A stretch of 64,000 nucleotides of DNA, from positions 23,627 to 87,626 of the forward strand of contig JANQLF010000122.1 of assembly GCA_028280785.1 (NCBI GenBank), given 5' to 3'. Under the pieces are notes generated by a model that was not told the DNA's origin, searched no databases, and saw only the letters and a program-made list of their open reading frames with translations. Numbering within the stretch: position 1 is the stretch's first letter; every line of letters begins with the position of its first letter. The translations under genes and the position numbers were made by a program. Positions 12,044 through 30,262 of this stretch are shown in pieces. This stretch comes from Planctomycetota bacterium. GTDB taxonomy: Bacteria; Planctomycetota; UBA11346.

Positions 12044-12120
12044 GCGGGTGTAGCTCAGTTGGCTAGAGCGACAGCTTGCCATGCTGTAGGTCGTGAGTTC
12101 GAGTCTCATCACCCGCTCCA
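12044..12120 (+). tRNA. tRNA-Gly (anticodon GCC) with encoded CCA
   Basis: 77 nt cloverleaf folded by hand: acceptor stem GCGGGTG/CACCCGC, D-arm GCTC/GAGC, anticodon stem ACAGC/GCTGT with loop TTGCCAT, T-arm GTGAG/CTCAT with loop TTCGAGT, discriminator T, CCA. Confidence 0.85.
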
Positions 12121-12122
12121 AA
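12075..12122 (+). repeat. attL: 48 bp direct repeat (anticodon loop to 3' end of tRNA-Gly)
   Basis: Exact 48 bp match to 30178-30225. Confidence 0.85.
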
Positions 12123-12124
12123 CG

Positions 12125-12158
12125 AAAACCCCGTGAGGTATTAACCTTGCGGGGTTTT
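12125..12158 (+). terminator. rho-independent terminator after tRNA-Gly
   Basis: CCCCGTGAGG-loop-CCTTGCGGGG hairpin followed by TTTT. Confidence 0.6.
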
Positions 12159-12237
12159 CTCTTGCTTTAAATTATGGGCCTAAGAAACGTCAGTTGAAAC
12201 GCTGTTGAAAGGTAATTCACTTTAGGGCATCAAGCGA

Positions 12238-12789
12238 ATGGTCACACGCGATACACTCAACGAAAACAAACAAAACAGATACTTGGGAAAACAGCATACC
12301 ATATCGGATAATTTTCTGGTCACTCAAGAACACGATGACTACACATGCTGGGCAGCCTGCATTGCTATGGCAACAATTTGGCACAACGACCCGAAGACTA
12401 TAGATTCAATAGTTGAAGAATTGATGCCCGGTGTGGATAAGAAGTCACCCAAAGCCGCTGTAAATAATTTGGATTTCACATTCGCAACACAAGAAATTAA
12501 ATGCCCTAACAACACCACCTTAACATTTACTCCAATATTAAATACAACCCCAAGCATCGAAGAAATAAAAAAGGGAATTATAAATGGGCCCTACCTGCTT
12601 TGGCTGAAGAGTCAGGATCATACCTCAAATATGGGCCACATTGTATTGGGAGTCGGGGTTTGGCATGTACCAGAGACAGACAGTATACTTGCGTGGTCTG
12701 TTTTAGACCCTAACAATAATTACAATATCCTCGTCAAAAAGCCTGGAATTAATGACATCCACCAGATAAGACAAATAGTCAGGATATAA
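12238..12789 (+). CDS. papain-fold cysteine peptidase, C39-like
   Basis: 183 aa; CWAACIAMA resembles the C39 catalytic Cys block (CGAACLAM); downstream GHIVLGVG resembles the C39 His block; stop is 1 nt before TIR gene start. Confidence 0.5.
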   Translation: MVTRDTLNENKQNRYLGKQHTISDNFLVTQEHDDYTCWAACIAMATIWHNDPKTIDSIVEELMPGVDKKSPKAAVNNLDFTFATQEIKCPNNTTLTFTPILNTTPSIEEIKKGIINGPYLLWLKSQDHTSNMGHIVLGVGVWHVPETDSILAWSVLDPNNNYNILVKKPGINDIHQIRQIVRI

Positions 12790-12790
12790 A

Positions 12791-13390
12791 ATGACCGTAT
12801 TCCTAAGCCATAACAGTAAAGATAAACCAACTGTTAGATCAGTTGCCACACAACTACAGCTAATGAAAATAAACGTGTGGCTTGATGAATGGAATCTACA
12901 ACCTGGCGACATGTTAACGATGAGCATATCGGATGCATTGGATAACTGCGATACAATTTTAGTATTCTGGTCAGAGAGCGCCGCCCAAAGTAATTGGGTC
13001 AATGCCGAAATAAATTCTGCCATTACACAATCCATAACGCATGGAAAAAAAGTGATACCTATTATTCTAGACTCAACTCCGCTACCGGCCCTTCTATCTG
13101 GAATAGTTTATATTAACGGAACGAACCTAAATACACTCCCAATGAACTGTATATCTGCAATAACAGGTATTACGAAAAGAAGTGACCAACTAATGGCCAT
13201 GCAGGATGAATTGGCAAATATCGGCGATTTACATTACAATCCACTCATAGGTAATTTTTTTGTCTGCCCCAACTGCGGCGGAAATGCTAGCGACCTTCAC
13301 TCATCTAGCGCACTCGACGAAGAGCACGATAGAATGTATGGCATCGTTAAATGTAGTAATTGCGGTTATCAAGAAGTCAGCGAAATATAA
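12791..13390 (+). CDS. TIR domain protein with C-terminal zinc ribbon
   Basis: 199 aa. TIR hallmarks are FLSHNSKDK (betaA), VWLD, and SNWVNAEINSAI with Trp-x3-Glu spacing like the catalytic Glu of NADase TIRs. C-terminal CPNCGG...CSNCGY zinc ribbon. Confidence 0.7.
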   Translation: MTVFLSHNSKDKPTVRSVATQLQLMKINVWLDEWNLQPGDMLTMSISDALDNCDTILVFWSESAAQSNWVNAEINSAITQSITHGKKVIPIILDSTPLPALLSGIVYINGTNLNTLPMNCISAITGITKRSDQLMAMQDELANIGDLHYNPLIGNFFVCPNCGGNASDLHSSSALDEEHDRMYGIVKCSNCGYQEVSEI

Positions 13391-13488
13391 TATTACAAGA
13401 GAACATATCACACGTGTATTTTCTCTTGCTAACTGTGTAAATTGTTGGCCTGCGCCGTCCACTAAAATGAACGCTTCATGGGACAGCG

Positions 13489-13800
13489 ATGACAATTACT
13501 ACCGACATTACATTTCGTGAAATAAGTGAAGATGAGTGGGAAATTTTCACAGGCGCACAATCATGGAACGATGAAGAACCTTTAATATCAGAAGGTCATC
13601 TAAATGACCATACGCCTTATTTCATGCTGCTAGATCGCAACGGTGGTTGTATTTTATTATATGACTCACAGGACCAACAGGGATGCCTGCAACTAAATCT
13701 AGAGTTTGCACACCAGGCTGAAGCCAGGGCCTTTATTTATGATAATATTCAAAGGCTCACTCTCGAATGTTTTATCAACGCTGGATTCATGGAGGTTTAA
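13489..13800 (+). CDS. hypothetical acidic protein
   Basis: 103 aa ORF between TIR gene and integrase, overlaps annotated integrase ORF start. Confidence 0.3.
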   Translation: MTITTDITFREISEDEWEIFTGAQSWNDEEPLISEGHLNDHTPYFMLLDRNGGCILLYDSQDQQGCLQLNLEFAHQAEARAFIYDNIQRLTLECFINAGFMEV

Positions 13801-14948: not shown

Positions 14949-14955
14949 ATAACAC

Positions 14956-17688
14956 TTAATCAAACTCCATCTTATCGCCATCAGGCTTCGAAGAATATCT
15001 CCAGCCACGTTGCGCAAACGCCTCCTTACCACCCTCTAGCTTAAGAAGAGACTCTCTATTCTCTATATTCTCAATAGCAAATTGTTGCACATTCGTAATG
15101 CCGTTCTCCAGAGAATTTAGAGAAATAACGAGGTCAGCGTCGCCATTTATTACAAAATTAGCATTATGCGTTGCAAATATTATCTGCCTCCGCGATTTTT
15201 GTCGTTTTATTAGGTCAGTCAAATACTCTGCAATTAACGCACTGTCCAGATGTGCCTCCGGCTCATCTATAATCAATGGGTGATTGCCAATACTTAACAA
15301 AATAACTAAAACTGCAGTGCATCTTTGACCAAATGAACAAGTTTCGATTGGTTTGTCTCCATACTCTATATTAACAGATCTGATGCTCTTTATTGAGCAG
15401 AGGCGCTTCATGTACATCAATCTTAAAATTTGAATATTATTTGAGTCTCTCAGGTATTCCTTTAATAAATTAACCGTCTTACCTTCGGGTATTCCATCAA
15501 ATAACGCATCAAATACATCATCATCACTTCCCTCAGCCCATATCTTACCATTTAATTGTTCAATACAGCGCCGCACTTTGTCTGCCCTTAAATTACTCTC
15601 TTCGTACTGTTGGTTCATCAAATCAATCAACTCTGATGCAAGACTCGAATGAGCATAGCCAAAAAGCAAACCGGGCTTAATTACTATTGACTTTACATGG
15701 GGAGACGTCGCTTTTAACAGATCGTTCAAGTCGTCAATTATCGGAATAGAATGCTCCATATAACTCGATAACAATTGATCTGGGGGAGGATTATTATCGA
15801 TATACTCTTTATGTTCCGAAATTTCTTCATTGATATTCGCCAGAGACTGCTTCAGCTCAAGAATATCTTCATTGGCCTTGTTCAAATCAAGTGCATTCTG
15901 GGGCTCCACTCCCTTTTCTGCCAAAAACACTTCTAACTTCTCCCTCTCAGTTGCAATGTCTGCCTCGACACTCAAAGACTTTTTCTGCAAATCTGCAAGG
16001 ATTCGTGTAGTAGGTGATGATTTCCTTATTTCACCATATTGAACTATAACCCCGTCCAACCATTCTTTAGCATCTTCATCTTTTGGTTTTTTAATGCTCT
16101 CTAATGAATGAATTGCCTCAGCTAAAATTGATTCGGCGTTTTCTATGATAGCAATGTCTGACTTATATTCGGACAGCGTTCCTGCGAGCTCACTAATTTT
16201 ATCATTAATCTCCTTATGGGCTGGATCATTCAATGAAGATACAATGCGCTCTAAAGAACCGATTCTTTTTTCTACATTGGCTCTTTCTTTAATTAGACTC
16301 GCGTATTTTCGCATTGAACCCACTAAACTGTCGATCGTATCCCCATTAGCCTCGGCCTCATTGATTATTCCCATCAGCTTATTGCTTGAGTCCAACTGTG
16401 TAATTCTATTGTATATTGCACTCGACAACTCTCGCCCATTAATAGCGTAACCTTCGACCTTATCTTGGGGTAAATATTCCGCTGAATCTGGTGGCGTTCC
16501 ATCATTCAGGCTACAAAAGTCAGACGGCGAGAAAACTTGGCCATTATCATCATGCAAAACACAGCCATCCAAAAAACCAGCTGGTTTTCCCATTCCTGCA
16601 TTAATCAACTGCAACAATGTGCTTTTTCCTGATCCTCGACCTCCAACAACACATGTGTAGGACGGAGAAAATGATATTAATCCTACGCCATTAAAGCAAA
16701 AAGGATAAGTCGATTCTATCTGACCGGCCTTGGACTCAACTGATAATTCAGGGTTAGATAGCGTCAATTTATTTATTACATGTATTGGAGTCTGCGGGGC
16801 ATATTGACCAATGTGCACCCTATACTGAGGTTCATACTTAATCTGCTTTAAACCCTCGAATGTTAATTCAGACTTGATCCAACACTTTCGATCCTTATGT
16901 GGACAAAAAACTTTTTCTAAGTTGTGGGCATCAGAGCCCTTAATGCAGGGCAGCAGCTTTCCGTATCTTTGTTTTATATATTCCTCATCTTTATCCTCGC
17001 TTAAACCCAGGAAATATTCTACATCCTTTGGCCTACCGCTGTCGATGAAATCCACAAAACCATATAAAAAGTCTCTTAATGATTGGAAGGAACCCGCGCT
17101 CAAACCTCCAAGACCATCTTTCGAATTATTGGGAATGCCAAGCAATACATTTTTACGAATTTTTGGATTATCATTAAAAAAATCCATAAGCCTAGTGTAC
17201 GAAACCTTAAACTGACTTATGCCCAGCTCATACGCTTCGTTCTCGCTCAACTCAGAAGAAGAGGCCTGTTGTCCTAGCTTAATTAAATCGTTTCGAGTAC
17301 AAAAATATTCTCCGAATTTCATACTCGGGAAAAATACTCGTTCAAAATCCTCTAAAATATCTGGATTCACCAAAATATGAAAATTAACAGGGTTCCCGTC
17401 TTCCGTCTGAATATCCAGTCGAAGCTCAAGATTGGGTAAATGAAATTCGATATCGTTTGCTCGCCCCTGATCATGAAAATTTTTGAATTTCCTGTAATTA
17501 TCAAAAGAGTAGTAGTCAGTTATTGCAATGGCCTTCACTTCTGGATAGGATTCAATTTTATCCAGATAGGCGCCCCATTTATTACCTGCATCAGATCCAG
17601 CAAACTGATCATTCAGTGCAGTATCTGGGCTGTGTATATGCAAATCCCATCTATTCCAAACAGACCCAATGCAATTTTGCTCACTCAT
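14956..17688 (-). CDS. PHP phosphoesterase fused to SMC/Rad50-like ABC ATPase with coiled-coil (Ppl-like single-gene defence candidate)
   Basis: 910 aa. N-terminal WDLHIHS PHP motif. Walker A GGRGSGKSTLLQL. Approx 300 aa coiled-coil insert. C-terminal signature-like SFGQR, Walker B IIDEPEAHLD and H-loop FATHN. Confidence 0.7.
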   Translation of the reverse strand: MSEQNCIGSVWNRWDLHIHSPDTALNDQFAGSDAGNKWGAYLDKIESYPEVKAIAITDYYSFDNYRKFKNFHDQGRANDIEFHLPNLELRLDIQTEDGNPVNFHILVNPDILEDFERVFFPSMKFGEYFCTRNDLIKLGQQASSSELSENEAYELGISQFKVSYTRLMDFFNDNPKIRKNVLLGIPNNSKDGLGGLSAGSFQSLRDFLYGFVDFIDSGRPKDVEYFLGLSEDKDEEYIKQRYGKLLPCIKGSDAHNLEKVFCPHKDRKCWIKSELTFEGLKQIKYEPQYRVHIGQYAPQTPIHVINKLTLSNPELSVESKAGQIESTYPFCFNGVGLISFSPSYTCVVGGRGSGKSTLLQLINAGMGKPAGFLDGCVLHDDNGQVFSPSDFCSLNDGTPPDSAEYLPQDKVEGYAINGRELSSAIYNRITQLDSSNKLMGIINEAEANGDTIDSLVGSMRKYASLIKERANVEKRIGSLERIVSSLNDPAHKEINDKISELAGTLSEYKSDIAIIENAESILAEAIHSLESIKKPKDEDAKEWLDGVIVQYGEIRKSSPTTRILADLQKKSLSVEADIATEREKLEVFLAEKGVEPQNALDLNKANEDILELKQSLANINEEISEHKEYIDNNPPPDQLLSSYMEHSIPIIDDLNDLLKATSPHVKSIVIKPGLLFGYAHSSLASELIDLMNQQYEESNLRADKVRRCIEQLNGKIWAEGSDDDVFDALFDGIPEGKTVNLLKEYLRDSNNIQILRLMYMKRLCSIKSIRSVNIEYGDKPIETCSFGQRCTAVLVILLSIGNHPLIIDEPEAHLDSALIAEYLTDLIKRQKSRRQIIFATHNANFVINGDADLVISLNSLENGITNVQQFAIENIENRESLLKLEGGKEAFAQRGWRYSSKPDGDKMEFD

Positions 17689-17847: not shown

Positions 17848-18213
17848 CTATCTTCGAGCAATTAGTGCTATGATGGCAGCAATGCCTACCACGACCAAGC
17901 CCTTCTTGATCAAATCAGAGGTCTTCGCATCAGATCGAATCTCTACATCGTTTTTTAGGAGATTGGTCCTGGCAGTTTCCGCATCCTTGAACACCTGAGA
18001 AGGCATAACCCCTAGTCCATAACATAGTTTATCTAACAGATCTACGGATACGCTTACATCGCCCTTCTCAGCCCTAGATATCGTTGACTGAGGAATGCCC
18101 GTTTTTTCAGAGAGATCTTTTTGCTCAATACCCTTGGTGGTCCTGTAATGCCTCAATATTGCGCCGACCACTGCTGGGAAGGTGGTGACATTCACCATTT
18201 TTTCATTTGACAT
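17848..18213 (-). CDS. XRE-family HTH transcriptional regulator with C-terminal TM anchor
   Basis: 121 aa; HTH_3 (LSEKTGIPQSTISRAEKGD); C-terminal VVVGIAAIIALIA hydrophobic helix; sits upstream of the PHP-ATPase gene on the same strand. Confidence 0.6.
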   Translation of the reverse strand: MSNEKMVNVTTFPAVVGAILRHYRTTKGIEQKDLSEKTGIPQSTISRAEKGDVSVSVDLLDKLCYGLGVMPSQVFKDAETARTNLLKNDVEIRSDAKTSDLIKKGLVVVGIAAIIALIARR

Positions 18214-18692
18214 ATATGCTTCTCCTGCATATTAGGTTTTCAGCCATACACGCTCAAGGAGCAATTATGCTAGATAATGGCAATTCACCAAGTCCAATAG
18301 ATGACCCGAGGGGCATTCCTGCAGGTACACCAATTTACCTCAATGTGGGGTTTTATAGACATATCGGCATCGTCTCGGATAGGAAAATGCACGGCAAGCC
18401 CATGGTCCTTGAGAAGTCCTTGAAGCGTGGTCGAGCCATGGAAGTCACATGGGATACATTCAGTAATGGTCAACCCATTTATCGATATGACATTCAGTCC
18501 AATACAAATGCCCAAAACGCAATAAGAAACGCGAGATCAAAGCTTGGTGAAACCTGGACACCTTGGAATAACTGCGAGCACTTTGTAAGAGAGTCACTTT
18601 GCGTTGACTCAAGCAGTCCCCAACTACAAACAACTGCGATCTTCACAGGTTTATCCGCGATTCTCTTACTGATATCAATAAAAAGTCGATAA
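18207..18692 (+). CDS. LRAT/PLAAT-like NlpC/P60-fold protein with C-terminal TM anchor
   Basis: 161 aa (real start may be 18267 MLDNG). YRHIGIVSD His block and NCEHFV Cys block characteristic of LRAT/H-rev107 family. C-terminal TAIFTGLSAILLLISI helix. Confidence 0.55.
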   Translation: MTYMLLLHIRFSAIHAQGAIMLDNGNSPSPIDDPRGIPAGTPIYLNVGFYRHIGIVSDRKMHGKPMVLEKSLKRGRAMEVTWDTFSNGQPIYRYDIQSNTNAQNAIRNARSKLGETWTPWNNCEHFVRESLCVDSSSPQLQTTAIFTGLSAILLLISIKSR

Positions 18693-19005
18693 TTAATCTC
18701 ACGCGTGGGAAATATATTTCGCACCAGAGAAGGGGTCAGACAGTGATGCTAAAGAGGAAACTTTTCGCGTCCATAATTGAAAAGTAATATTATATACACC
18801 ATTCCCCTATGCCTCTAACAACATAAATTATGTAAAACAAACATGAATGAGCAGGATAGTTCATGTAGTAAAAACATGGAATAAATTTCCAGAAATATTT
18901 CACCGAGGTCTTTTCATGCTCCAAAAATATTTCTGCCCGTTTATTAGATTCAGAATGTCACGGGAGCGCTCGTCTGGCGTCGGAGATATATCTCTAAACC
19001 AGATA

Positions 19006-19785
19006 TCATCCCTTGTCGCTAATAATGTGCGGGAGCACATGATAGACCCGCTGCCTTGGCATATCAGGCAGCGACATTTTACGTTGATATTTTCCATCTG
19101 AACTCTTTTTAATATACCCATTTTTTGCCAAGACCTTTGCCACAAATCGAGCATCCATGCCCTTGCAAACATGCTGACGCCATGCGTTGGGTAAAAAATA
19201 ATAATGGTTAAGTTGACGTGGTTCATCCTCACCATCAATTAATGTCTGTACTTTATCAATAAATCCAGTTCTGTTGCGAACAGGAAATCCATCTATTGTC
19301 ACCCTGCCATTAAAACGATTAATAACATTCATTTGAGACGGTGCATTATACTCAATATAAGAACGTATTAATTCGATAGCCTGCTGCTCCTCTCGACTAG
19401 TTGTTGAGCCGCGATTTTCAATCCAGGCATTGGCCACCTTAATCACATTTGTTCTTGCAACACCAGATTTCCATCCAGTGATACCCCATTCACTTGCCTT
19501 TTCACCTGCAAATGCAACTTGTGCAAAGCGTTCTAACACGCGAACAATTTGTCCGTCAGAATCCTTTGGCAAAACTTCTTTAAGGAAAATGGCCTTAAAC
19601 TCTTGCCATTCTTCTGGCAGTTCGTCCTGCCAATGCACTGCCTGTGCTATAAACTGTCTACCCGCATAACCAGTGTTTTCCTTGGCCAGCTTTCGAATTT
19701 CATCTGAGAATTGTGCTCCACTTTTAGCCATTATGTAAATCCTCCCACACACCGAGCCCACATCCAGCATCTGCAGGGATATCAA
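19006..19785 (-). CDS. DUF927-family C-terminal segment (possible split gene, probable start approx 19734)
   Basis: 259 aa ORF directly following and overlapping the DUF927 ORF; no independent RBS evident. Confidence 0.4.
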   Translation of the reverse strand: MISLQMLDVGSVCGRIYIMAKSGAQFSDEIRKLAKENTGYAGRQFIAQAVHWQDELPEEWQEFKAIFLKEVLPKDSDGQIVRVLERFAQVAFAGEKASEWGITGWKSGVARTNVIKVANAWIENRGSTTSREEQQAIELIRSYIEYNAPSQMNVINRFNGRVTIDGFPVRNRTGFIDKVQTLIDGEDEPRQLNHYYFLPNAWRQHVCKGMDARFVAKVLAKNGYIKKSSDGKYQRKMSLPDMPRQRVYHVLPHIISDKG

Positions 19786-22214: not shown

Positions 22215-22235
22215 AATTTCTCCTTAGTTACAGGG

Positions 22236-22601: not shown

Positions 22602-22664
22602 GAGTGGAGGTCATACAGACGACAACTACATTGGCTAAACCCAATCCCAAAAGAGACGCCGGAA

Positions 22665-23735
22665 ATGTCAAAAGGAGCGACTTTTGACATATTGCCACTG
22701 TATTCCAGAGATACACCTATCAGCGCCGCTAACCAAGTTTACAATTGCGGGCATAAGCCAACAAGGAGTCAAACTATGACAAAGGAAAAGATTTTCCTGG
22801 ACCGCAAAAAGGTTATGGACATTGCAAGCAAGAAATTTAGCGAACCAATTATTACTAATTTAGGACATGCAGCATTTCCAGGTTTAAGTAGTGGACCCAG
22901 CTATGTCTCCCGTGCAATTGGGGAGCCCAGAAACAATAGCACCACCAACCGATGGATAACGGTCGGTCAGGCTATAGCCATTGCCAATGCGATTGGAGTT
23001 ACTGACTGGAAAGAGCTGAAGTCTACGACATTCGATGACCAATTAAGCCTTCTAGCAACCACACTACAGTCAGAGGTAAGAGAGAGCGATAGATTTTACG
23101 ATGCCTACTTTCATGGCGAGGAGAGTTTCAACTTTAACATCGATTTAAACCTATGGGAATTTCTCATCATTGCAAAATCCATTAAAAGCCTGCCCGATAC
23201 AGTACAAAAAGACCACTTCCACAGCCACAAAACCCTTAAAGAGAAATTGATCAGTGCACTCATGAAATCTCCCTTATTGAAGCCCGACAGATCCCACGGG
23301 GTAAACAATGAAAATTTTGAATGGGATGCTTTACTTACAGCTGCAGAGGGATTAATAGACACGTTGGAATATGAGTCATGGAATAAAATGAGAACCGAGA
23401 ATTTACTCGATCATTACTCCAATGACCCGGAGGCAGTTAAGCTGATTTCAAAAGAAAAACGCCATGGCTTGAAACGGCTTTCAAAGGACATCGATAAGAT
23501 CACCCGAAAAATCCTTTCAGAAGAGCTTGATAAAAATAATTACATCAATGTTAGCAGATGGCACCAATGGAAAAACAACTCTGAAGGCCGAGAATTTCTG
23601 AAATATTTACACGATCACATCGCGTTCATCCCCCAAATTAGTAGCGCTGAGGATGAGGACTATGATTACTATATCGAAGATCAGTGGTCTGTGATCGAGG
23701 CCGCTCAACGGATTCTACACGCGGTATTAAGCTAA
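22665..23735 (+). CDS. hypothetical protein (island)
   Basis: 356 aa ORF (alternative start MTKEK at 22777); possible HTH-like stretch NRWITVGQAIAIANAIGV. Confidence 0.4.
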   Translation: MSKGATFDILPLYSRDTPISAANQVYNCGHKPTRSQTMTKEKIFLDRKKVMDIASKKFSEPIITNLGHAAFPGLSSGPSYVSRAIGEPRNNSTTNRWITVGQAIAIANAIGVTDWKELKSTTFDDQLSLLATTLQSEVRESDRFYDAYFHGEESFNFNIDLNLWEFLIIAKSIKSLPDTVQKDHFHSHKTLKEKLISALMKSPLLKPDRSHGVNNENFEWDALLTAAEGLIDTLEYESWNKMRTENLLDHYSNDPEAVKLISKEKRHGLKRLSKDIDKITRKILSEELDKNNYINVSRWHQWKNNSEGREFLKYLHDHIAFIPQISSAEDEDYDYYIEDQWSVIEAAQRILHAVLS

Positions 23736-23867
23736 CTAGTGTCAAAGCTGAGTTGATTTGACACTTTAAATCTGAGTCAGAATTATTTTACATGCAGAAA
23801 TGTATTTATAGATAAATTGCGGAGTAAATCGCAGAATCTATAATTCATTTCAATCGGAATTAGTAAA

Positions 23868-25037
23868 ATGCCTGACCCAAGAAAAAAAGACCCAACTCTG
23901 CCTCGTGGCGTGACCATAGAAGACCAATGGGAAAAACGACGACGACTTGGAAAGCCGGTTAACCCCGGCGTGCGGCGATACCTAGCAAAAGCCCTAATCG
24001 GTGGGACTAAATATAAATCCAAAGTGTTTGATAAACGCCGCGACGCTATCGACTGGGCTACCGCTACCGTCGCTCGTATACAAGCAGGACTCGACACAGG
24101 CAGATGCTGCCTTGTGGTAACATACTTGGATGAATATCTTTCGGAATTAAAAAGTCGCCGCCTGTCAGAAGGTTATATTAGACAAGCTGAAGACACACTC
24201 CAATTACTGCATAACAATGGCGCGAAGGACTTAAACAATCCATCATTCATACACACTGCAAAATTGATATTATATAATAAAAAAGCCCTGAAGACCAACA
24301 GAGATGGGTCTGTACGCCGCCAAACACAGTTAAAATTATCACCGTCTACAATTAACAGATACATTGCCCAGGCCAAGACATTCTCAACTTGGTGTAGTGA
24401 CAATGGATATGCAAATCGAGATGTATTAGCGCCGTTAAAGAAGCTACGTGAAGTAAAGAAAAACAAGCCCGTCCTGACTGTGTCAGAGCTCAAGCGTCTA
24501 CTAAATGACGAAAATAGTCACCATTCATTTTGGTTGATGACATGCCTGATGTGCTACCTCGGCTTACGTTGCGGTGAAGCGGCGGGCCTTCGAACTGCCG
24601 ACATTCTCTTCGAAGAAGAAATTGTTCGAGTCTGCATGCCGGATGGCCATGGGATGAAATTAAAATGGCAAAAAGAACGTCTAGTGCCTCTACAACCAGA
24701 ATTAGCTGAGATACTTCGTAAGCAAATGGATCCAAAGGCCAAATACGTGGTAAAGTCTGATAGACCACGAAAGGACAAGACCAAGTGGCGGACTGACTTC
24801 GACCAACTTCTAAGACTGGCAGGAATCACTAAGCGACCAGGGCTCAGCCCTCACAGTTGCAGACATACTTACATATCGCTTATGGTTGCCCATACAGGTG
24901 ACATGCGAAAGGTCCAAAAGAGCGTTGGCCATCAAAGCATCGTCACTACAGAAAAGTACGCTGAAAGTGCAGATGCCTACTACATATTTGTAAAAGACTG
25001 GCCCAAGGACCAGTATCTACACTTGCGCAACTTGTAG
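23868..25037 (+). CDS. int: tyrosine-type site-specific integrase (second)
   Basis: 389 aa; HSCRHTYISLM ... GHQSIVTTEKYAE, which is the H-x-x-R ... Y catalytic pattern. Confidence 0.8.
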   Translation: MPDPRKKDPTLPRGVTIEDQWEKRRRLGKPVNPGVRRYLAKALIGGTKYKSKVFDKRRDAIDWATATVARIQAGLDTGRCCLVVTYLDEYLSELKSRRLSEGYIRQAEDTLQLLHNNGAKDLNNPSFIHTAKLILYNKKALKTNRDGSVRRQTQLKLSPSTINRYIAQAKTFSTWCSDNGYANRDVLAPLKKLREVKKNKPVLTVSELKRLLNDENSHHSFWLMTCLMCYLGLRCGEAAGLRTADILFEEEIVRVCMPDGHGMKLKWQKERLVPLQPELAEILRKQMDPKAKYVVKSDRPRKDKTKWRTDFDQLLRLAGITKRPGLSPHSCRHTYISLMVAHTGDMRKVQKSVGHQSIVTTEKYAESADAYYIFVKDWPKDQYLHLRNL

Positions 25038-25049
25038 CACTGACTTGCT

Positions 25050-28000
25050 ATGACGTTAGTACAAGTGAGCACAGTAGGTTATAGCGAAGACTGGGAGGAA
25101 GGATTATCTGCACCTGTACTCCTAATCCATCTAGCTATTGCTAAGGCCTCATTGGACTTACGTCATTCAAGAGACAGAATCCCTCATGTAACATTAAGCT
25201 GCCGCCTAAGGATGTACTACATGAGCGCTCTTTCCGACCTTCTTGACGATTATCGAAACAAATCACAAACCGAGCGCGAAAAAGGCACCTATTTTGAAGA
25301 GCTGATTAGGACCTATTTCAGGTTTGAAGCGACCTATAAGGATCTATACAGCGATGTGTGGCTATACTCAGACTGGGCCAAAGAGCAGGGACTAGATCAA
25401 AGGGATACTGGAATTGACCTAGTTGCCAAAACACATGCAACAAATGAATTCCATGCCATTCAATGCAAATGCTTCGCTGAAGATTACAAAGTTCAAAAAA
25501 AGGATATTGATAGTTTTTTCACGGCTTCCGGAAAGAAGCCATTTTCACACCGGATCATAGTTACCACAACTAATCTCTGGAGTGAACACGCAGATGATTC
25601 CCTTCGGGATCAACAATTATCAGTTAATAAAATTGACCTCCACGATCTTGAGAATAGTCAAATCGACTGGGCCAAATATAAATCCGACAACAAACCTATA
25701 CTAAAGAAAAAGAAAACTCTTCGGCGACACCAAGAAACTGCGCTCTCAAACGTTGTATCTGGGCTCAATAAAGCAGACCGTGGTAAGCTGATTATGGCCT
25801 GTGGGACAGGTAAAACTTTTACCAGCTTAAAAATAGCTGAACAAATGGCCGGAAAAGGGAAAAGAGTATTGTTTCTGGTCCCGAGCTTGTCTCTACTTAG
25901 TCAAACCTTAACTGAATGGACTCAGCAATCTGAAACGCCAATGCATAATTTTGCAGTTTGTTCGGATAGTGCTGTAGGAAAAAAACGAAAGAAAGATGAT
26001 GATATAGTTCAAACTTTCATGCACGAACTTAGGTATCCAGCAACCACTGATCCCAAGCGCTTGGCTGGTGAAATGAAGAAAAGACACGATGATCAGCATA
26101 TGAGCGTTGTGTATTCAACCTATCACTCAATTGAAGTGATTAATCAAGCACAAAAAAATCATGCACTAGATGATTTTGATCTGATTATATGTGATGAGGC
26201 CCATCGAACTACAGGAGCTACATTCGAAGACGAAAGTGAAAGCAACTTCGTGAAGATTCACGATTCGGGTTTCATTAAATCCAAGAAACGTTTGTATATG
26301 ACAGCAACACCAAGAATTTATGGTGATAGTGCAAAGGCTACTGCCGAAAAAGACAATGTTGCAATATGCTCTATGGATGACGAGAAATTATACGGTAAAG
26401 AACTTCACGTAATAACATTCTCAGAATCTGTTAAACTAGGGCTGCTCACAGACTATAAAGTGATCGTCCTTTCGATTGATGAAGAACATGTTAGCTCAAG
26501 AATACAAAATTTATTAAAAGATGATAATAACCAGTTAAAGGTAGATGATGCTGCCAAAATTATTGGCTGCTGGAAAGCACTCAGCAAACAAGGGATGGAG
26601 GAGGATTTGATCCTTGATCCCAAACCAATGAAAAGGTCTGTTGCATTTTGTCAAGTTATTGACCCAAAATCTGGAAGAAGCCACAAGGTCAGCTCTAAAC
26701 AGATTTCATCAATGTTCCAAGAAGTGGTTGAAGCGTACCAAGAACAGGAAGAAGAACACAATACACTGATATGTGAGGCAAGGCATATCGACGGGAGCAT
26801 GAATGCCAGTGAAAAGACTGAAAAGATTGATTGGTTAAAATCAGAGCCAGCCGAAGACACTAGTCATATCCTCAGTAATGTCCGCTGCCTCTCCGAAGGC
26901 GTTGATATTCCAGCACTAGATGCAGTTCTTTTTCTCACACCCAGGAATTCTCAGATTGATGTTGTCCAATCAGTTGGCCGTGTAATGCGGAATGCCGATG
27001 GCAAAAACAAAGGGTATGTAATTTTACCTGTCGTAATACCAATGGGCATGACTCCCTCTGAAGCTTTGAATGACAATAAAGTATACAAGGTTGTTTGGGA
27101 GGTCTTACAAGCTCTAAGATCTCACGATGACCGCTTTGATGCAATGATAAACAAGTTGGATCTAATCGGCAAAGATACAAGCAAAATGGAAGTCATTGCA
27201 ATAACAGACAAAGTTCAACGAAAGGCAAAAAAGAAGAAAAAACAAGCTGGCAAAGGTAGCAGCACCATTGGCAGCCCAGATCTAAACAACATTCCCACAC
27301 AAATGGACATACAATTCGAAGTTGGTGAAGTGGAACGAGCGTTATATGCAAAAGTGGTTAAAAAATGCGGAAACAGAAACCACTGGGAAGATTGGGCAAA
27401 AGATATTGCTAAAATAGCAAAAACTCATATTGCTAGAATTACAACCATAATAAGGGATAAAAGCAATAAAATAGAAAGAAAGTCCTTCTTTGCGTTCGCA
27501 GAAGAACTTCGAGATGATTTAAACGATAGTATAACTGATGATGAAGTAATAGAAATGCTTTCACAGCATTTGATTACTAAACCCGTATTTGATGCGTTGT
27601 TCAAGGACTATAGTTTTGCTAATAACAACCCCGTATCTCAGGCAATGCAACAAGTATTGGATACTCTCCAAGAACATCGATTGGACAAAGAGACGGATAC
27701 CTTAGATCGTTTTTATTCAAGCGTTCAATTACGTGCAGAGGGCATTGATAGCGCCGAAGGGAAACAAAGGATAATACTTGAACTGTACGATAAATTCTTC
27801 CGTAATGCATTTCCTCGGATGACCGAACGATTAGGCATCGTCTACACACCTGTTGAGGTAGTAGACTTCATAATACACAGTGTTAATGACCTACTTAAAT
27901 CACAGTTCAAACAGACATTAAATAACCAGGGAGTGCACATTATAGATCCCTTTACCGGAACTGGAACATTTGTCACTCGATTGCTTCAAAGTGGTTTAAT

Positions 28001-30080
28001 AAAACAAGAGAACCTTAAAGAAAAATACATGAAAGAAATTCATGCAAATGAAATTGTTTTACTAGCCTATTACATAGCCGCCATAAATATTGAATCGGTT
28101 TATTATAGCATCGTTGGCGGCGAGCATAAGACCTTCAATAACATATGCCTAACAGATACTTTTCAGCTGCATGAAAAAGATGATACCATAAGCGGTTTAT
28201 TGGAAGACAATAGCGACAGAAGGATTAAGCAAAAAAAATTAGACATAAGGGTGATTATGGGCAACCCACCCTATTCAGCAATACAATCGAGCGAGAATGA
28301 TAACAACAAAAAAACTGGTTACCCAAATCTTGACGGGAGAATTCGAGATACATTCGCGCTTGGCTCAAGCGGTGTACTCAAAAATGCCTTGTATGACTCA
28401 TATGTAAGAGCAATGAGATGGGCGATAGATCGTATCGGCAATAAAGGTATTATAGGATTTGTAACTGGCAGCGCCTGGATTGACAGGACATTTGCCGATG
28501 TGATGAGAAAATGCTTGGCTGAAGAATGTACAAGCATTTACATAGTGGACCTAAGGGGCGATATTAGAAAAAATATGCTAAGTAAGGGAGCAGCAAAGCA
28601 GGGAGGCAATATATTTGGGTCAAGCAGCATGACTGGGATCGCCGTTACATTTTTTGTTAAAAACCCTTCTTCATCTAAAAAGAGCAAGATCTACTATTTA
28701 GATATTGGTGAAGATCTTAGCAGTGAGGACAAATTAAATGAGTTATTGCGCCTTAAGAGCTGCAATAATATTTCGGAATTAGGTCTTTGGTCTGAGTTGA
28801 TCCCGGATAAGTATAACGATTGGATTAATCAACGTGACGACAAGTTTGAGTCATACCCGGTCATTGGGAGCAAGAAAAAAGACTCCGGGGTGACTATTTT
28901 CAATGTATATTCGGGCGGCGTAAAAACCAATCGCGATGCATGGTGCTATAATTTCTCTCGAGAATCTGTCGCACATAATATGTCTAATATGGCCGATTTT
29001 TACAACAGTGAGATGATGAGGTACAAAAAACATTGTGAGCGCACCCCCAAGGATCGGAGGACTCCGGTTGATGAATTTATAGATAACAACCCTAAAAACA
29101 TTAGCTGGACAAGAGAATTAAAGAGAGATCTTTTGAATGGAAAAGATCGCCCCTATAATGAATCCGCTATTAGAATGGCACATTATAGACCATTTATAAA
29201 ATGCTGGATGTATTTTGATAGATACTATAACAACTGTATTTACCAGATGCCTAAATTATTCCCGAATCCAGATTCTGCCAATAAGATAATTTGTGTCTCC
29301 GGTATTGGGTCCAGGAGCGGATTTTCTGCTTTAATGGTTGATGCCGTTCCTTGCTTGGACATGATCGAAAAAGGGCAGTGTTTCCCAATTATTCAATATA
29401 AAGAAAGTGAAGAATCTACACAAACAACTTTCATAAACCAAGAAAATTCTACTGAAATTCCTGCTATCACCAGCGAGGGACTTGAGTATTTTCGTAGGAA
29501 TTTGACGGAAATTGAAGTGGATGAAAGTGATGTCTTTTACTATGTCTATGGATTACTTCACAGTAGAGACTATGTGAAAAAATTTGGGAAAAACCTCATA
29601 AAGGAACTGCCTAGAATTCCATGCCCCAAAGAATCTGATGACTTTAAAACATATTCAGTTAACGGAAAGAAACTTTCTGAATTACATCTAAACTATGAAT
29701 CAGTAGAGTGTTATCCTGCTAAAATTGAGACATCTGTTGATAGACTTAGACCCGATCATTACCTAGTCGATAAGATGAAGTTTAAAACCAAAAAAGACAA
29801 GACCATTATTGTGTACAATGAGTTTATCACAATAAATGGGATTCCTGAAAAAGCGTACGATTATCTGGTCAGCGGCAAACCCGCCATAACCTGGGTGATG
29901 GAGAGACAGTCTAAATCAGTTGACAAAAAAAGTGGAATCGTAAATGATGCGAATAATTGGGCTACTGACACAATTGGTAACCATAAGTATCCCCTAGAGT
30001 TACTTCTGCGTGTCGTCACTGTCAGCTTGCAAACACTGAACATTATTGACGATCTACCAAGCATCGAATTTATTGATTGA
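25050..30080 (+). CDS. Type ISP restriction-modification enzyme (Mrr-like nuclease + SF2 helicase + N6-adenine MTase + TRD in one polypeptide)
   Basis: 1676 aa (start may be 25212). N-terminal PD-(D/E)xK Mrr-like block (GIDLVAK...IQCK). Helicase Walker A ACGTGKTFT and DEAH box LIICDEAHRT. Gamma-class MTase GNPPYS (NPPY). Long C-terminal target-recognition region. Architecture as in LlaGI/LlaBIII. Confidence 0.8.
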   Translation: MTLVQVSTVGYSEDWEEGLSAPVLLIHLAIAKASLDLRHSRDRIPHVTLSCRLRMYYMSALSDLLDDYRNKSQTEREKGTYFEELIRTYFRFEATYKDLYSDVWLYSDWAKEQGLDQRDTGIDLVAKTHATNEFHAIQCKCFAEDYKVQKKDIDSFFTASGKKPFSHRIIVTTTNLWSEHADDSLRDQQLSVNKIDLHDLENSQIDWAKYKSDNKPILKKKKTLRRHQETALSNVVSGLNKADRGKLIMACGTGKTFTSLKIAEQMAGKGKRVLFLVPSLSLLSQTLTEWTQQSETPMHNFAVCSDSAVGKKRKKDDDIVQTFMHELRYPATTDPKRLAGEMKKRHDDQHMSVVYSTYHSIEVINQAQKNHALDDFDLIICDEAHRTTGATFEDESESNFVKIHDSGFIKSKKRLYMTATPRIYGDSAKATAEKDNVAICSMDDEKLYGKELHVITFSESVKLGLLTDYKVIVLSIDEEHVSSRIQNLLKDDNNQLKVDDAAKIIGCWKALSKQGMEEDLILDPKPMKRSVAFCQVIDPKSGRSHKVSSKQISSMFQEVVEAYQEQEEEHNTLICEARHIDGSMNASEKTEKIDWLKSEPAEDTSHILSNVRCLSEGVDIPALDAVLFLTPRNSQIDVVQSVGRVMRNADGKNKGYVILPVVIPMGMTPSEALNDNKVYKVVWEVLQALRSHDDRFDAMINKLDLIGKDTSKMEVIAITDKVQRKAKKKKKQAGKGSSTIGSPDLNNIPTQMDIQFEVGEVERALYAKVVKKCGNRNHWEDWAKDIAKIAKTHIARITTIIRDKSNKIERKSFFAFAEELRDDLNDSITDDEVIEMLSQHLITKPVFDALFKDYSFANNNPVSQAMQQVLDTLQEHRLDKETDTLDRFYSSVQLRAEGIDSAEGKQRIILELYDKFFRNAFPRMTERLGIVYTPVEVVDFIIHSVNDLLKSQFKQTLNNQGVHIIDPFTGTGTFVTRLLQSGLIKQENLKEKYMKEIHANEIVLLAYYIAAINIESVYYSIVGGEHKTFNNICLTDTFQLHEKDDTISGLLEDNSDRRIKQKKLDIRVIMGNPPYSAIQSSENDNNKKTGYPNLDGRIRDTFALGSSGVLKNALYDSYVRAMRWAIDRIGNKGIIGFVTGSAWIDRTFADVMRKCLAEECTSIYIVDLRGDIRKNMLSKGAAKQGGNIFGSSSMTGIAVTFFVKNPSSSKKSKIYYLDIGEDLSSEDKLNELLRLKSCNNISELGLWSELIPDKYNDWINQRDDKFESYPVIGSKKKDSGVTIFNVYSGGVKTNRDAWCYNFSRESVAHNMSNMADFYNSEMMRYKKHCERTPKDRRTPVDEFIDNNPKNISWTRELKRDLLNGKDRPYNESAIRMAHYRPFIKCWMYFDRYYNNCIYQMPKLFPNPDSANKIICVSGIGSRSGFSALMVDAVPCLDMIEKGQCFPIIQYKESEESTQTTFINQENSTEIPAITSEGLEYFRRNLTEIEVDESDVFYYVYGLLHSRDYVKKFGKNLIKELPRIPCPKESDDFKTYSVNGKKLSELHLNYESVECYPAKIETSVDRLRPDHYLVDKMKFKTKKDKTIIVYNEFITINGIPEKAYDYLVSGKPAITWVMERQSKSVDKKSGIVNDANNWATDTIGNHKYPLELLLRVVTVSLQTLNIIDDLPSIEFID

Positions 30081-30177
30081 AGCGTAATTGAAATATGACA
30101 TACACATCCAGGACTGTAAAAAATGTAAATTTAAATGACATGCCGTAACCTTACAGTCCTCAACATATATTTCCCTT

Positions 30178-30225
30178 CTTGCCATGCTGTAGGTCGTGAG
30201 TTCGAGTCTCATCACCCGCTCCAAA
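30178..30225 (+). repeat. attR: 48 bp copy of tRNA-Gly 3' part
   Basis: Exact copy of 12075-12122. Confidence 0.85.
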
Positions 30226-30226
30226 G

Positions 30227-30262
30227 AAAAAGCCCTTCGATTATTCGAAGGGCTTTTTCTTT
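30227..30262 (+). terminator. rho-independent terminator (probable original tRNA-Gly terminator)
   Basis: AGCCCTTCG-ATTAT-CGAAGGGCT perfect hairpin followed by TTTTT. Confidence 0.7.

What the first reader, a model, noticed from the sequence alone, without database searches (positions are those of the whole stretch)
12044..30262. 18.1 kb composite island integrated at tRNA-Gly(GCC), with two integrases and two terminator-bearing tRNA 3' ends
A perfect 48 bp direct repeat running from the anticodon loop through CCA+AA (12075-12122 and 30178-30225) brackets the region. Each copy is followed by its own different rho-independent terminator, so the island supplied a replacement tRNA 3' end plus terminator. 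Two tyrosine integrases (13767 and 23868) but only two att copies imply either tandem acquisition with loss of the internal att, or a nested element. Cargo is dominated by defence-type genes: a TIR pair, a PHP-ATPase, an LRAT-like gene and a Type ISP R-M enzyme. There is also a P4/PICI-like replication module (AlpA-like, DUF927).
Basis: seen in the sequence. Interest (0 to 1): 0.55.

Follow-up and report, generated by a model that had tools for sequence, protein, structure and literature searches.

The report
Composite defence island at tRNA-Gly
An 18.1 kb piece of foreign DNA carrying anti-phage genes and two related integrases sits in the 3' end of a glycine tRNA gene; it is a real but fairly ordinary mobile island, probably two related elements fused after inserting at the same site.

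Summary
A tRNA-Gly(GCC) gene (12044-12120) and a perfect 48-bp copy of its 3' part (12075-12122 = 30178-30225) bracket 18.1 kb. Each copy is followed by its own strong terminator. Both tyrosine integrases are intact, and no third att copy or remnant was found.

New here: int1 belongs to an unnamed integrase clade. Two other members (48% identical) lie 2.5 and 4.7 kb downstream of a 97% identical tRNA-Gly(GCC), co-oriented with it. Variable defence genes sit between the tRNA and the integrase, and a GAAAC repeat motif is conserved next to attL. int2 is a singleton among 1.84 billion representative proteins; its nearest relatives (35%) are the int1 clade.

Cargo:
- one TIR protein, not a pair
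- a TrlF/Ppl-like ATPase
- an intact Type ISP enzyme
- an AlpA-like/DUF927 replication operon whose helicase gene is split into two ORFs

No capsid or packaging genes were found, so it is not a demonstrable P4 or PICI satellite.

Best reading (about 0.5): serial insertion of related elements at one attB, followed by loss of the internal att. This resembles tycheposon-type island growth. No related genome was available, so the empty site and excision remain untested. It is a new member of a known kind, of modest interest.

The parts
12044..12120 (+). tRNA-Gly(GCC), intact; its 3' 46 nt lie inside the attL core
   Evidence: ARAGORN; Rfam RF00005 69.3 bits
12075..12122 (+). attL core (48 bp, anticodon loop to CCA+AA)
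   Evidence: identical to 30178-30225, no extension
12124..12159 (+). terminator 1 (inferred to be supplied by the element)
   Evidence: 16-pair stem plus T-run; -27 kcal/mol, z -6.8
12184..12210 (+). GAAAC direct repeats with 11-nt period; candidate integrase arm-type sites of the int1 clade
   Evidence: TRF. Only match to GAAAC-N5-8-GAAAC in the window. Same motif at the same relative place in L092 and L093, although the surrounding DNA has diverged
12238..12789 (+). p183, unknown; not detectably TIR; sits in the cargo slot with the TIR gene
   Evidence: no Pfam, PADLOC, NCBIfam or PHROG hit; no similarity to the TIR protein; AF2 model unusable
12791..13390 (+). TIR-domain protein with C-terminal zinc ribbon (defence-type)
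   Evidence: TIR_2 E 8e-27; PADLOC PDC-S66 and ThsB-like hits
13418..13475 (+). stretch similar to the DNA just after terminator 1 (12154-12205); possible vestige of a second element's arm
   Evidence: local alignment z 5.2; 5 of 500 shuffles reach the score. Weak and post hoc
13489..13800 (+). p103, small ORF directly upstream of int1 and conserved with the closest int1 relative
   Evidence: 42% identical homologue upstream of the 61% identical integrase in L086/L087
13803..14948 (+). int1, tyrosine integrase of a clade that targets tRNA-Gly(GCC) (alternative start 13767)
   Evidence: Pfam; relatives at 48-61%; L092 and L093 lie at tRNA-Gly(GCC); catalytic residues invariant
14956..17688 (-). 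TrlF-family AAA-like ATPase (Ppl-like); candidate single-gene defence
   Evidence: NCBIfam NF045780 E 4e-131, 439.5 bits against a cutoff of 350; PADLOC Ppl 3.8e-37, partial match
17848..18213 (-). XRE/cI-type HTH regulator
   Evidence: HTH_3 2e-10; phrog_3 repressor 2e-11
18216..18692 (+). 158-aa protein with a sub-threshold LRAT/NlpC-P60 hit
   Evidence: PF04970 E 0.014, 16.2 bits against a cutoff of 24.3
18693..19005 (.). 313-nt non-coding AT-rich stretch downstream of the helicase genes, with direct and inverted repeats; candidate replication origin
   Evidence: repeats D1, I1, I4 and I9; position downstream of pri as in Gram-negative PICIs (PMC10111431). Inference only
19006..19731 (-). 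p241, C-terminal part of the DUF927 helicase encoded as a separate ORF
   Evidence: aligns to the C-terminal 200-260 residues of 28 single-chain relatives, directly after the end of the p450 match; phrog_1139 positions 680-887
19724..21076 (-). DUF927 helicase, N-terminal and core part (450 aa); overlaps p241 by 8 nt (ATGGCTAA)
   Evidence: PF06048 E 3e-58; phrog_1139 positions 355-676
21088..22214 (-). three small ORFs (p111, p160, p112) between the AlpA-like gene and the helicase; unknown function
   Evidence: no family hits; same position as small ORFs, Prim-Pol or Toprim genes in L116, L118 and L119
22236..22601 (-). AlpA-like HTH_17 protein, first gene of the leftward replication operon; candidate regulator or excisionase
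   Evidence: HTH_17 E 0.0013, below cutoff; the order HTH_17 -> small ORFs -> DUF927 recurs in L116 and L119
22666..22689 (.). palindrome 1: TGTCAAA-N10-TTTGACA
   Evidence: one of only two matches in 64 kb, 0.03 expected
22776..23735 (+). p319 (p356 if started at 22665), all-helical protein with no known relatives
   Evidence: the 319-aa form is the product on record; no hits in Pfam, PADLOC, NCBIfam or PDB; AF2 model unusable
23740..23763 (.). palindrome 2: TGTCAAA-N10-TTTGACA; overlaps a promoter-like site upstream of int2
   Evidence: promoter-like site 23758-23786
23868..25037 (+). int2, intact tyrosine integrase; orphan sister of the int1 clade
   Evidence: Pfam E 7e-24; 32% identical to int1 over the full length; best non-self hit among 1.84 billion representatives is the int1 clade at 35%
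25050..30080 (+). Type ISP restriction-modification enzyme (likely start about 25221)
   Evidence: Mrr_cat_2, ResIII/Helicase_C, ISP_coupler, N6_Mtase and Type_ISP_C domains; full-length PADLOC model match; 62% identical to annotated plasmid Type ISP enzymes from residue 58 onward
30081..30177 (.). right arm next to attR; has a 10-bp inverted repeat and 2x ATGACAT, but lacks the GAAAC motif
30178..30225 (+). attR core (tRNA 3' fragment)
30223..30262 (.). terminator 2; bidirectional hairpin shared with the convergent host phoX gene; inferred to be the original tRNA terminator
   Evidence: 18-nt perfect arms; -28.1 kcal/mol, z -10.1

Best explanation
The region is a mobile genomic island. It entered the 3' half of a tRNA-Gly(GCC) gene by tyrosine-integrase site-specific recombination. 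The crossover lies inside a 48-bp core, so the element rebuilt the tRNA 3' end and brought its own terminator. The displaced original 3' end and terminator now form attR.

The left part comprises the attL arm with GAAAC repeats, the p183+TIR cargo, p103, int1 and the convergent TrlF/Ppl-like ATPase. It is a typical member of an uncharacterised integrase clade that targets tRNA-Gly(GCC) and keeps defence genes on both sides of the integrase.

The right part comprises p319 flanked by two palindromes, int2 and the Type ISP enzyme. It has the same layout, but with an orphan integrase whose nearest relatives are the int1 clade.

The most likely history is therefore serial (tandem) insertion of related elements at the same attB, followed by deletion of the internal att. 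This left one 18.1 kb unit bounded by the only surviving att pair. A still older round may explain the p183+TIR cassette.

The AlpA-like/DUF927 operon would give the excised circle transient replication. The cargo protects the host against phage.

Shown: the att pair, the genes, the clade's target site and geometry, and the absence of an internal att. Inferred: the order of events, which integrase works today, and whether the island still excises.
For: - att pair and terminators.
- Foreign composition: 0 of 300 size-matched host segments are as far from the host mean.
- Both integrases keep all catalytic residues and are 32% identical over their full length.
- int1 clade at tRNA-Gly(GCC): in L092 and L093 the integrase (48% identical) lies 4.7 and 2.5 kb downstream of a 97% identical tRNA-Gly(GCC) and is co-oriented with it. 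A terminator follows the tRNA. Different cargo sits between the tRNA and the integrase: a SMEK_N-TPR-PIN protein in L092 and a GmrSD_N protein in L093. A conserved small-ORF-plus-int block follows.
- The GAAAC-N6/7-GAAAC motif is conserved next to attL in all three.
- 7 of 10 neighbours of clade integrases hit PADLOC models.
- Among 1.84 billion representatives, int2's best non-self hit is the int1 clade (35%, E 1e-55); only 17 hits have E<=1e-30.
- The right arm lacks the GAAAC motif, as expected if the two ends come from different elements.
- 12154-12205 resembles 13418-13475; 5 of 500 shuffles reach the score.
- Four int1-clade elements with 6-10 kb read downstream of int show no DUF927 module.
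- Tandem arrays, eroded elements and att loss at tRNA sites are documented for tycheposons (bioRxiv 10.1101/2020.12.28.424599). They are documented for PICIs as tandems, with fusion across att proposed (PMC10111431).
Against: - No remnant of an internal att was found anywhere, so the tandem stage is inferred, not seen.
- Tetranucleotide composition does not separate the left and right parts (distance 0.016 against a host-host mean of 0.017).
- The boundary between the two putative elements cannot be placed. The AlpA-like operon diverges from p319-int2 across only about 175 nt that contain a shared palindrome. This could mean that the operon and int2 form one unit.
- The arm-like vestige at 13418 is weak and was found post hoc.
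- L092 and L093 share host flank and terminator at 99.4%. They therefore represent one further host lineage, not two.
- No empty site, circular form or related genome could be examined.
Confidence: 0.5

Rival explanations
1. A single mosaic element that was never a tandem. One int1-type island at tRNA-Gly picked up the p319-int2-Type ISP block (or the AlpA/DUF927-p319-int2-ISP block) by homologous or illegitimate recombination with another element. This would resemble the way cargo slots in this clade exchange genes. int2 is then a passenger.
For: - No internal att remnant.
- Composition of the two halves is indistinguishable.
- Cargo next to clade integrases is highly exchangeable.
- A complex PICI pair joined by recombination rather than integrase action has been described (PMC10111431).
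Against: - int2 is fully intact, with all catalytic residues. It has its own promoter-like site and palindromic site, which is unexpected for a useless passenger.
- Its nearest relatives are the very clade that uses this att, which a tandem explains more simply.
Confidence: 0.25
2. Nested or adjacent insertion of a satellite-like element. The block from the non-coding stretch at about 18.7 kb through the DUF927 operon, AlpA-like gene, p319, int2 and Type ISP is one SaPI-like unit. In it, the integrase and a repressor-like gene (p319) diverge from an AlpA-led replication operon. int2 inserted this unit into or beside a short int1 island (attL-TIR-int1-TrlF).
For: - Tight divergent arrangement of the AlpA-like gene and p319-int2, with two identical-format palindromes (0.03 expected, 2 found) in front of p319 and int2.
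- HTH_17 -> small ORFs -> DUF927 is a recurrent unit of integrative elements.
- int1-clade relatives lack a DUF927 module.
- A possible origin lies downstream of the helicase genes.
Against: - No direct repeat of 8 nt or more links any candidate left junction to the right arm.
- In the DUF927 relatives examined, the integrase is co-oriented with and upstream of the HTH_17 gene and is of the P4 type with an Arm-DNA-bind_3 domain, unlike int2.
- No packaging, capsid or interference genes were found.
Confidence: 0.15
3. An immobilised remnant. The island is a fixed, decaying relic that no longer excises. The two ends carry mismatched arms, the helicase gene is broken, and the integrases persist only by chance or for another role.
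For: - The helicase is split into 450 + 241 aa, whereas all 28 relatives are single chains.
- The left and right arms share no motif.
- The AlpA-like protein is only weakly recognisable.
Against: - The 48-bp cores are still perfect.
- Both integrases and all large cargo genes are full-length.
- Both helicase ORFs are intact and joined by a start/stop overlap typical of translational coupling.
Confidence: 0.1

Closest known systems
Tycheposons and tRNA-seeded island growth in Prochlorococcus (bioRxiv 10.1101/2020.12.28.424599)
   Same: A tyrosine recombinase targets a tRNA 3' end, and partial-tRNA repeats flank the element. There is a modular integration + replication (primase/helicase) + cargo layout. 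Repeated insertions occur at one tRNA, with eroded older elements building an island.
   Different: The host here is different and unidentified. Homology to tycheposon hallmark genes was not tested. Here the internal partial tRNA is missing, whereas reported tandems keep it. The cargo is anti-phage rather than nutrient-related.
Gram-negative PICIs and P4-like satellites (PMC10111431; P4 from general knowledge)
   Same: Integrase, an AlpA-type small HTH, a primase/helicase-class replication gene (the DUF927 class is counted as 'Primase' in that paper), a possible origin downstream of it, and defence genes as accessory cargo. Tandems at one att, and proposed fusion across an att, are described.
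   Different: Genes are not unidirectional int->alpA->pri: int1 converges on the operon and int2 diverges from it. No terS, capsid, psu/sid/delta or other helper-exploiting genes were detected. The integrases lack the P4-type arm-binding Pfam domain seen in L116 and L118.
Composite genomic islands at tRNA genes, e.g. CGI48 at tRNA-Trp in Shewanella putrefaciens (PMC8978831); ICE/CIME accretion in streptococci (reviewed in PMC5704250)
   Same: Two integrase-bearing units joined into one island at a tRNA site. Site-specific accretion is the origin.
   Different: Those composites keep recognisable internal att sites, or use a second distinct target gene, so they can revert to components. Here no internal site survives.
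Type ISP restriction-modification enzymes (LlaGI/LlaBIII class; general knowledge, and plasmid homologues)
   Same: Full single-chain architecture: Mrr-family nuclease, SF2 ATPase, coupler, N6-adenine methyltransferase and C-terminal specificity domain. 62% identical to annotated enzymes.
   Different: It is chromosomal island cargo next to an integrase rather than plasmid-borne. Its recognition sequence is unknown.

Membership tests
tRNA-integrated genomic island (tyrosine integrase, site-specific) | Intact tRNA gene at one end and a direct repeat of its 3' part at the other | tested here: met
   48/48 repeat
tRNA-integrated genomic island (tyrosine integrase, site-specific) | Tyrosine recombinase with a complete catalytic set encoded inside | tested here: met
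   Pfam; invariant R, K, H, R, H, Y in alignment A1
tRNA-integrated genomic island (tyrosine integrase, site-specific) | Composition distinct from the surrounding chromosome | tested here: met
   tetranucleotide distance exceeds all 300 host segments
tRNA-integrated genomic island (tyrosine integrase, site-specific) | Presence/absence polymorphism (empty attB) or an excised circle | not testable with these tools
   The best GTDB relative of the flanking PhoX is 48% identical. The only other source is the same strain.
int1 clade of tRNA-Gly(GCC) elements (defined here) | Integrase 48-61% identical to clade members, with conserved N-terminal and catalytic regions | tested here: met
   (int1); int2 reaches only 30-35%
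int1 clade of tRNA-Gly(GCC) elements (defined here) | Lies downstream of tRNA-Gly(GCC), co-oriented with it, with variable cargo between the terminator and int | tested here: met
   window, L092 and L093:
int1 clade of tRNA-Gly(GCC) elements (defined here) | GAAAC direct repeats 60-90 nt beyond the tRNA end | tested here: met
Gram-negative PICI | Unidirectional int -> alpA -> pri organisation | tested here: not met
   int1 is convergent with the AlpA-like/DUF927 operon and int2 is divergent from it (map). Definition from PMC10111431.
Gram-negative PICI | alpA gene | tested here: inconclusive
   HTH_17 19.4 bits, below the cutoff of 27; synteny with HTH_17 genes of L116 and L119; 17-25% identity
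Gram-negative PICI | Primase/helicase replication gene | tested here: met
   DUF927 E 3e-58; phrog_1139 DNA primase
Gram-negative PICI | Helper-exploiting late genes (terS, capsid or redirecting genes) | tested here: not met
   no PHROG or Pfam hit of this kind for any island ORF. Several ORFs remain unknown, so absence is not proven.
P4-like satellite | psu, delta and sid capsid-size genes, and an alpha-type primase | tested here: not met
   no such PHROG or Pfam hits. The list of defining genes is recalled from general knowledge.
Tycheposon | tRNA-targeting tyrosine recombinase, partial-tRNA flanks, and replication plus cargo modules | tested here: met
   description in bioRxiv 10.1101/2020.12.28.424599
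Tycheposon | Homology to the Prochlorococcus tycheposon hallmark gene profiles | not tested
Type ISP restriction-modification enzyme | Single chain with Mrr-type nuclease, SF2 ATPase, coupler, N6 methyltransferase and C-terminal specificity domain | tested here: met
   all five Pfam domains present in order; full-length PADLOC match; 62% identical to annotated enzymes
Thoeris | ThsB-type TIR protein together with a ThsA effector (SIR2, Macro or TM with SLOG) | tested here: not met
   The TIR protein gives only weak ThsB hits. No ThsA-like protein is present; p183 has no hits.
TrlF-family / Ppl anti-phage ATPase | Full-length match above the curated cutoff | tested here: met
   TrlF NF045780: 439.5 bits against a cutoff of 350. 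The Ppl equivalog is not met: 146.6 bits against a cutoff of 1000.

The most novel reading that the evidence does not exclude
The int1 clade marks an unrecognised, widespread family of small integrase-borne 'defence carriers' specific for tRNA-Gly(GCC). These would grow by repeated self-accretion at their own att followed by erosion of the inner att and older integrases. That process would explain why cargo accumulates between attL and the integrase. In this window, the process is caught midway, with two live integrases. In addition, p319 with its two flanking palindromes could be a new master regulator tying int2 to the AlpA/DUF927 replication operon of a satellite type that lacks all known helper-exploiting genes.
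Probability: 0.15. Interest if true: 0.55.

Novelty: new member of a known kind. Interest (0 to 1): 0.3.

Why it matters
The locus is a clean example of how defence islands form at a tRNA hotspot. It has two related, intact integrases, one surviving att pair, and at least three unrelated anti-phage candidates.

The comparative work adds one modest new fact. An uncharacterised integrase clade targets tRNA-Gly(GCC) and holds exchangeable defence genes on both sides of the integrase. That could help island-finding software, which usually expects the integrase next to the att site.

The locus also supplies several uncharacterised candidate defence or regulatory genes (p183 with TIR, p319, TrlF-like) for testing. 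It does not open a new class of system.

Tried and rejected
1. Empty site. A GTDB scan with the flanking PhoX gave at best 48% identity. Exact-protein look-ups found only Logan run SRR20820735, whose contigs are 100% identical to the window and break at the repeat edges, so it is the same strain.

2. Close relatives of int1, int2, the DUF927 protein or the att core in viral contigs: none. int2 in plasmids and int1 in phages gave only distant hits.

3. My first int2 protein search used too strict an E-value and returned only the query itself. The full HMMER search replaced it.

4. Internal att remnants. blastn-short and Smith-Waterman searches against shuffled controls found nothing at any junction. 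A 32-nt gapped reverse match inside the intact ISP ORF (26191-26222; score 16 against a null maximum of 14) is taken as chance.

5. Nested-element direct repeats: none of 8 nt or more.

6. Composition split between the left and right halves: none.

7. 'The 450+241 helicase split is natural, as in L116': rejected. The 247-aa gene in L116 is unrelated, and all relatives are fused.

8. int2 as an invertase switching ISP specificity: rejected. There are no inverted repeats or spare specificity cassettes, and the homologous plasmid ISP has no integrase beside it.

9. The palindromes as recombination sites making p319 a cassette: unlikely, because their central 10 nt differ. An operator role is favoured.

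10. The Logan contig end at 22766 as a sign of an element boundary: rejected. Logan contigs also end at 7600 and 36213 without repeats.

11. Single-sequence AlphaFold models of p183 and p319 had pLDDT of about 35 and were unusable, so no fold search was run.

12. Arm duplication in L092 and L093 like that in the window: not found.

13. A literature search for 'TrlF' returned only unrelated chemistry papers.

Full report
**Observation**

ARAGORN and Rfam find a single tRNA in the window, tRNA-Gly(GCC) at 12044-12120. Bases 12075-12122 are repeated exactly at 30178-30225. The match is 48/48 and stops on both sides at once.

The repeat begins at the first base of the anticodon loop and ends two A's after CCA. 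Each copy is followed by a different strong terminator hairpin:
- 12124-12159: -27.0 kcal/mol, z -6.8.
- 30223-30262: 18-nt perfect arms, -28.1 kcal/mol, z -10.1.

The second hairpin is shared with the convergent host phoX gene. This fits it being the original tRNA terminator.

**Gene content**

Left to right:
- p183: no family hit.
- A 199-aa TIR_2 protein with a zinc ribbon.
- p103.
- int1.
- A 910-aa TrlF-family AAA-like ATPase on the minus strand. It scores 439.5 bits against a cutoff of 350 and matches the Ppl anti-phage model in part.
- An XRE/cI-type HTH regulator.
- A 158-aa ORF with only a sub-threshold LRAT hit.
- A 313-nt non-coding stretch.
- A minus-strand operon: an AlpA-like HTH_17 protein (sub-threshold), three small unknown ORFs, a DUF927 helicase (E 3e-58) and p241.
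- On the plus strand: p319/p356, int2 and a complete Type ISP restriction-modification enzyme.

The 'TIR pair' is not supported. p183 shows no TIR signal and no similarity to its neighbour.

The Type ISP homologues on Thiothrix and Pseudomonas plasmids (62% identity) begin at residue 58 of the ORF. The real start is probably about 25221, which leaves 183 nt after int2. The 319-aa form of p356 is the product on record.

The island's tetranucleotide composition lies outside all 300 size-matched host segments. Its left and right halves do not differ from each other. The flanks are core genes: topA, mutL, fused secDF, htpG and hisS.

**The two integrases**

They are 32% identical over their full length. 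Both keep the invariant catalytic R, K, H, R, H and Y.

int1 has relatives at 48-61% identity in metagenomes. A metagenome scan with a clade alignment returned 25 loci.

In two of them, L092 and L093, the integrase lies 4.7 and 2.5 kb downstream of a tRNA-Gly(GCC) that is 97% identical to the window's. It is in the same orientation as the tRNA. These two contigs share three things:
- the tRNA and a terminator (99.4% over 168 nt);
- a diverged small-ORF-plus-integrase block (72% identity);
- nothing in between, where L092 has a 1303-aa SMEK_N-TPR-PIN protein and L093 a 530-aa GmrSD_N protein.

The window has the same geometry, with p183+TIR in that slot. So cargo between attL and the integrase is normal for this clade, and the TIR genes need not be a separate dead element.

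A GAAAC-N6/7-GAAAC direct repeat lies 60-90 nt beyond the tRNA in all three, although the surrounding DNA has diverged. It is the only match to that pattern in the 64 kb window. I read it as a conserved arm-type binding site, which ties the left end of the island to int1.

Genes next to clade integrases are mostly defence-like; 7 of 10 tested hit PADLOC models. More distant members (31-34% identity) sit at tRNA-His.

int2 is different. In 1.84 billion representative proteins, only 17 score E<=1e-30. The best non-self hit is an int1-clade member at 35%. int2 is thus an orphan sister of the clade that uses this very att site.

**Internal att and boundaries**

No third copy or degenerate remnant of the core was found. 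blastn-short hits do not exceed 12 nt. The only Smith-Waterman hit above shuffled controls is a gapped reverse-strand match inside the intact ISP ORF. No direct repeat of 8 nt or more links a candidate inner junction to the right arm.

Two smaller signals exist:
- The DNA just after terminator 1 (12154-12205) resembles 13418-13475, just after the TIR gene. Only 5 of 500 shuffles reach the score. This may be the vestige of a second element's arm, but it is weak and was found post hoc.
- The right arm (30081-30177) lacks the GAAAC motif. It has its own 10-bp inverted repeat and two ATGACAT copies. The two ends therefore do not look like the arms of one attP.

**Replication module**

DUF927 relatives (42% identity or less) occur in integrative elements with the order integrase -> HTH_17 -> small ORFs or primase -> DUF927. 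One is a small prophage or capsid-forming element in Fodinicurvata (L116). One is an island ending at the helicase (L118). One carries a resolvase (L119). This supports the reading that the AlpA-like gene heads a replication operon.

In all 28 relatives, the region matching p241 is fused to the helicase directly after the p450 match. Here the gene is split into two intact ORFs joined by an ATGGCTAA overlap. This is either a recent frameshift or a working two-chain version. My earlier idea that L116 shows the same split was wrong.

No island ORF matches capsid, terminase, psu/sid/delta or other helper-exploiting families. Gene orientation also differs from the unidirectional int->alpA->pri order of Gram-negative PICIs (PMC10111431). 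The island works like a replicative integrative element, but it cannot be filed as a P4 or PICI satellite.

**A regulatory detail**

Two perfect TGTCAAA-N10-TTTGACA palindromes are the only matches in the window, against 0.03 expected. They bracket p319, at 22666-22689 and 23740-23763. The second overlaps a promoter-like site in front of int2.

Their central 10 nt differ, so they are more likely operators than recombination partners. They suggest that p319 and int2, and perhaps the divergent AlpA-like operon, share one regulator.

**Interpretation**

The basic claim is secure: this is a mobile island integrated at tRNA-Gly(GCC) by a tyrosine integrase, and it carries mainly defence genes.

For the two-integrase puzzle, I favour serial accretion of related elements at one attB followed by loss of the inner att (about 0.5). 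The reasons are:
- int1's clade provably uses this site.
- int2's nearest relatives are that clade.
- The right part repeats the clade layout (a gene, then the integrase, then a defence gene).
- The two ends carry different arm motifs.

Such tandems and their erosion are documented for tycheposons (bioRxiv 10.1101/2020.12.28.424599). Tandems are documented, and fusion across an att proposed, for PICIs (PMC10111431).

The rivals are:
- a single mosaic element that captured int2 by ordinary recombination (0.25);
- a satellite-like AlpA/DUF927-p319-int2-ISP unit nested in or beside a short int1 island (0.15);
- an immobilised relic (0.1).

None can be excluded. No related genome, empty site or excision product was accessible.

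**Verdict**

The finding is real and largely as described, with corrections to the cargo list. It is a new member of a known kind of element. The modest new points are:
- the tRNA-Gly(GCC) integrase clade with defence slots on both sides of the integrase;
- the orphan second integrase;
- the split helicase;
- the paired palindromes.

Interest is 0.3.

Noticed in passing
window 22666-22689 and 23740-23763: Two perfect 24-nt palindromes, TGTCAAA-N10-TTTGACA, are the only matches in 64 kb (0.03 expected). They bracket the unknown gene p319. The second overlaps a promoter-like site upstream of int2. The half-site TTTGACAT also occurs at 18206-18213, at the divergent start of the XRE-HTH and LRAT-like genes.
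   Followed up: partly
window 12184-12210; L092 and L093 215-230: GAAAC direct repeats about one helical turn apart are conserved just beyond the tRNA terminator in three elements whose integrases are only 48% identical. They are candidate arm-type integrase sites.
   Followed up: partly
window 19006-21076 (minus strand): The DUF927 helicase is encoded as two intact ORFs (450 + 241 aa) overlapping by ATGGCTAA. All 28 relatives retrieved are single chains of 430-740 aa.
   Followed up: yes
window 25050-25220: The first 57 codons of the 1676-aa Type ISP ORF have no counterpart in homologues or in the PADLOC model. An ATG at 25221 preceded by AAGGA is the likely start, so int2 and the ISP gene are 183 nt apart rather than 13.
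   Followed up: partly
window 18693-19005: A 313-nt non-coding AT-rich stretch lies downstream of the helicase genes. It has direct repeats (TCCAGAAATATTTC x2) and several palindromes. It is a possible replication origin.
   Followed up: no
window 21367-21403 (minus strand): A strong 15-nt-arm hairpin (93% complementary) followed by T's lies inside the putative p111 ORF. p111 may not be a real gene, or this may be an internal terminator or attenuator of the replication operon.
   Followed up: no
L088, L089, L091-L095, L097 (just upstream of the integrase): A conserved ORF of about 70-80 aa (…RCRILASQTAE…PDTHIYKF…VEILGVVG) overlaps the integrase start by a few bases in most int1-clade loci. The window and L086/L087 have an unrelated p103-type ORF there instead. 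Its function is unknown; it may be an excision or directionality factor.
   Followed up: partly
L084 1-160 and L090 1-331: Two int1-clade loci from high-GC organisms have an FlhB/YscU-like gene fragment, not a tRNA, on the side upstream of the integrase. Part of the clade may use a different target.
   Followed up: no
L101 2377-2451 and 13124-13200: A distant clade member (34% identical) lies in a 10.7 kb segment between two tRNA-His(GTG) genes, both called full-length by ARAGORN. The integrase is at the end far from the presumably original tRNA. This geometry differs from the tRNA-Gly elements.
   Followed up: no
window 30095-30141: The right arm next to attR has two ATGACAT copies 40 nt apart (TGACAT expected 0.06 times in 97 nt) and a 10-bp inverted repeat, AGGACTGTAA/TTACAGTCCT. 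These are possible binding sites for the second integrase or a host factor.
   Followed up: no
window 5991-9119 (minus strand), outside the island: A 1042-aa Ser/Thr kinase gives partial hits to defence-associated kinases (MADS MAD6 at 5e-38, BREX PglW at 2e-16). It may simply be a housekeeping Hanks-type kinase.
   Followed up: no
whole window: Every window protein looked up is a singleton at 90% identity among about 15 billion sequences. The best GTDB match to PhoX is 48%. Secretins resemble the Akkermansia Amuc_1098 family. The host lineage is poorly sampled, possibly PVC-group, and was not identified.
   Followed up: partly
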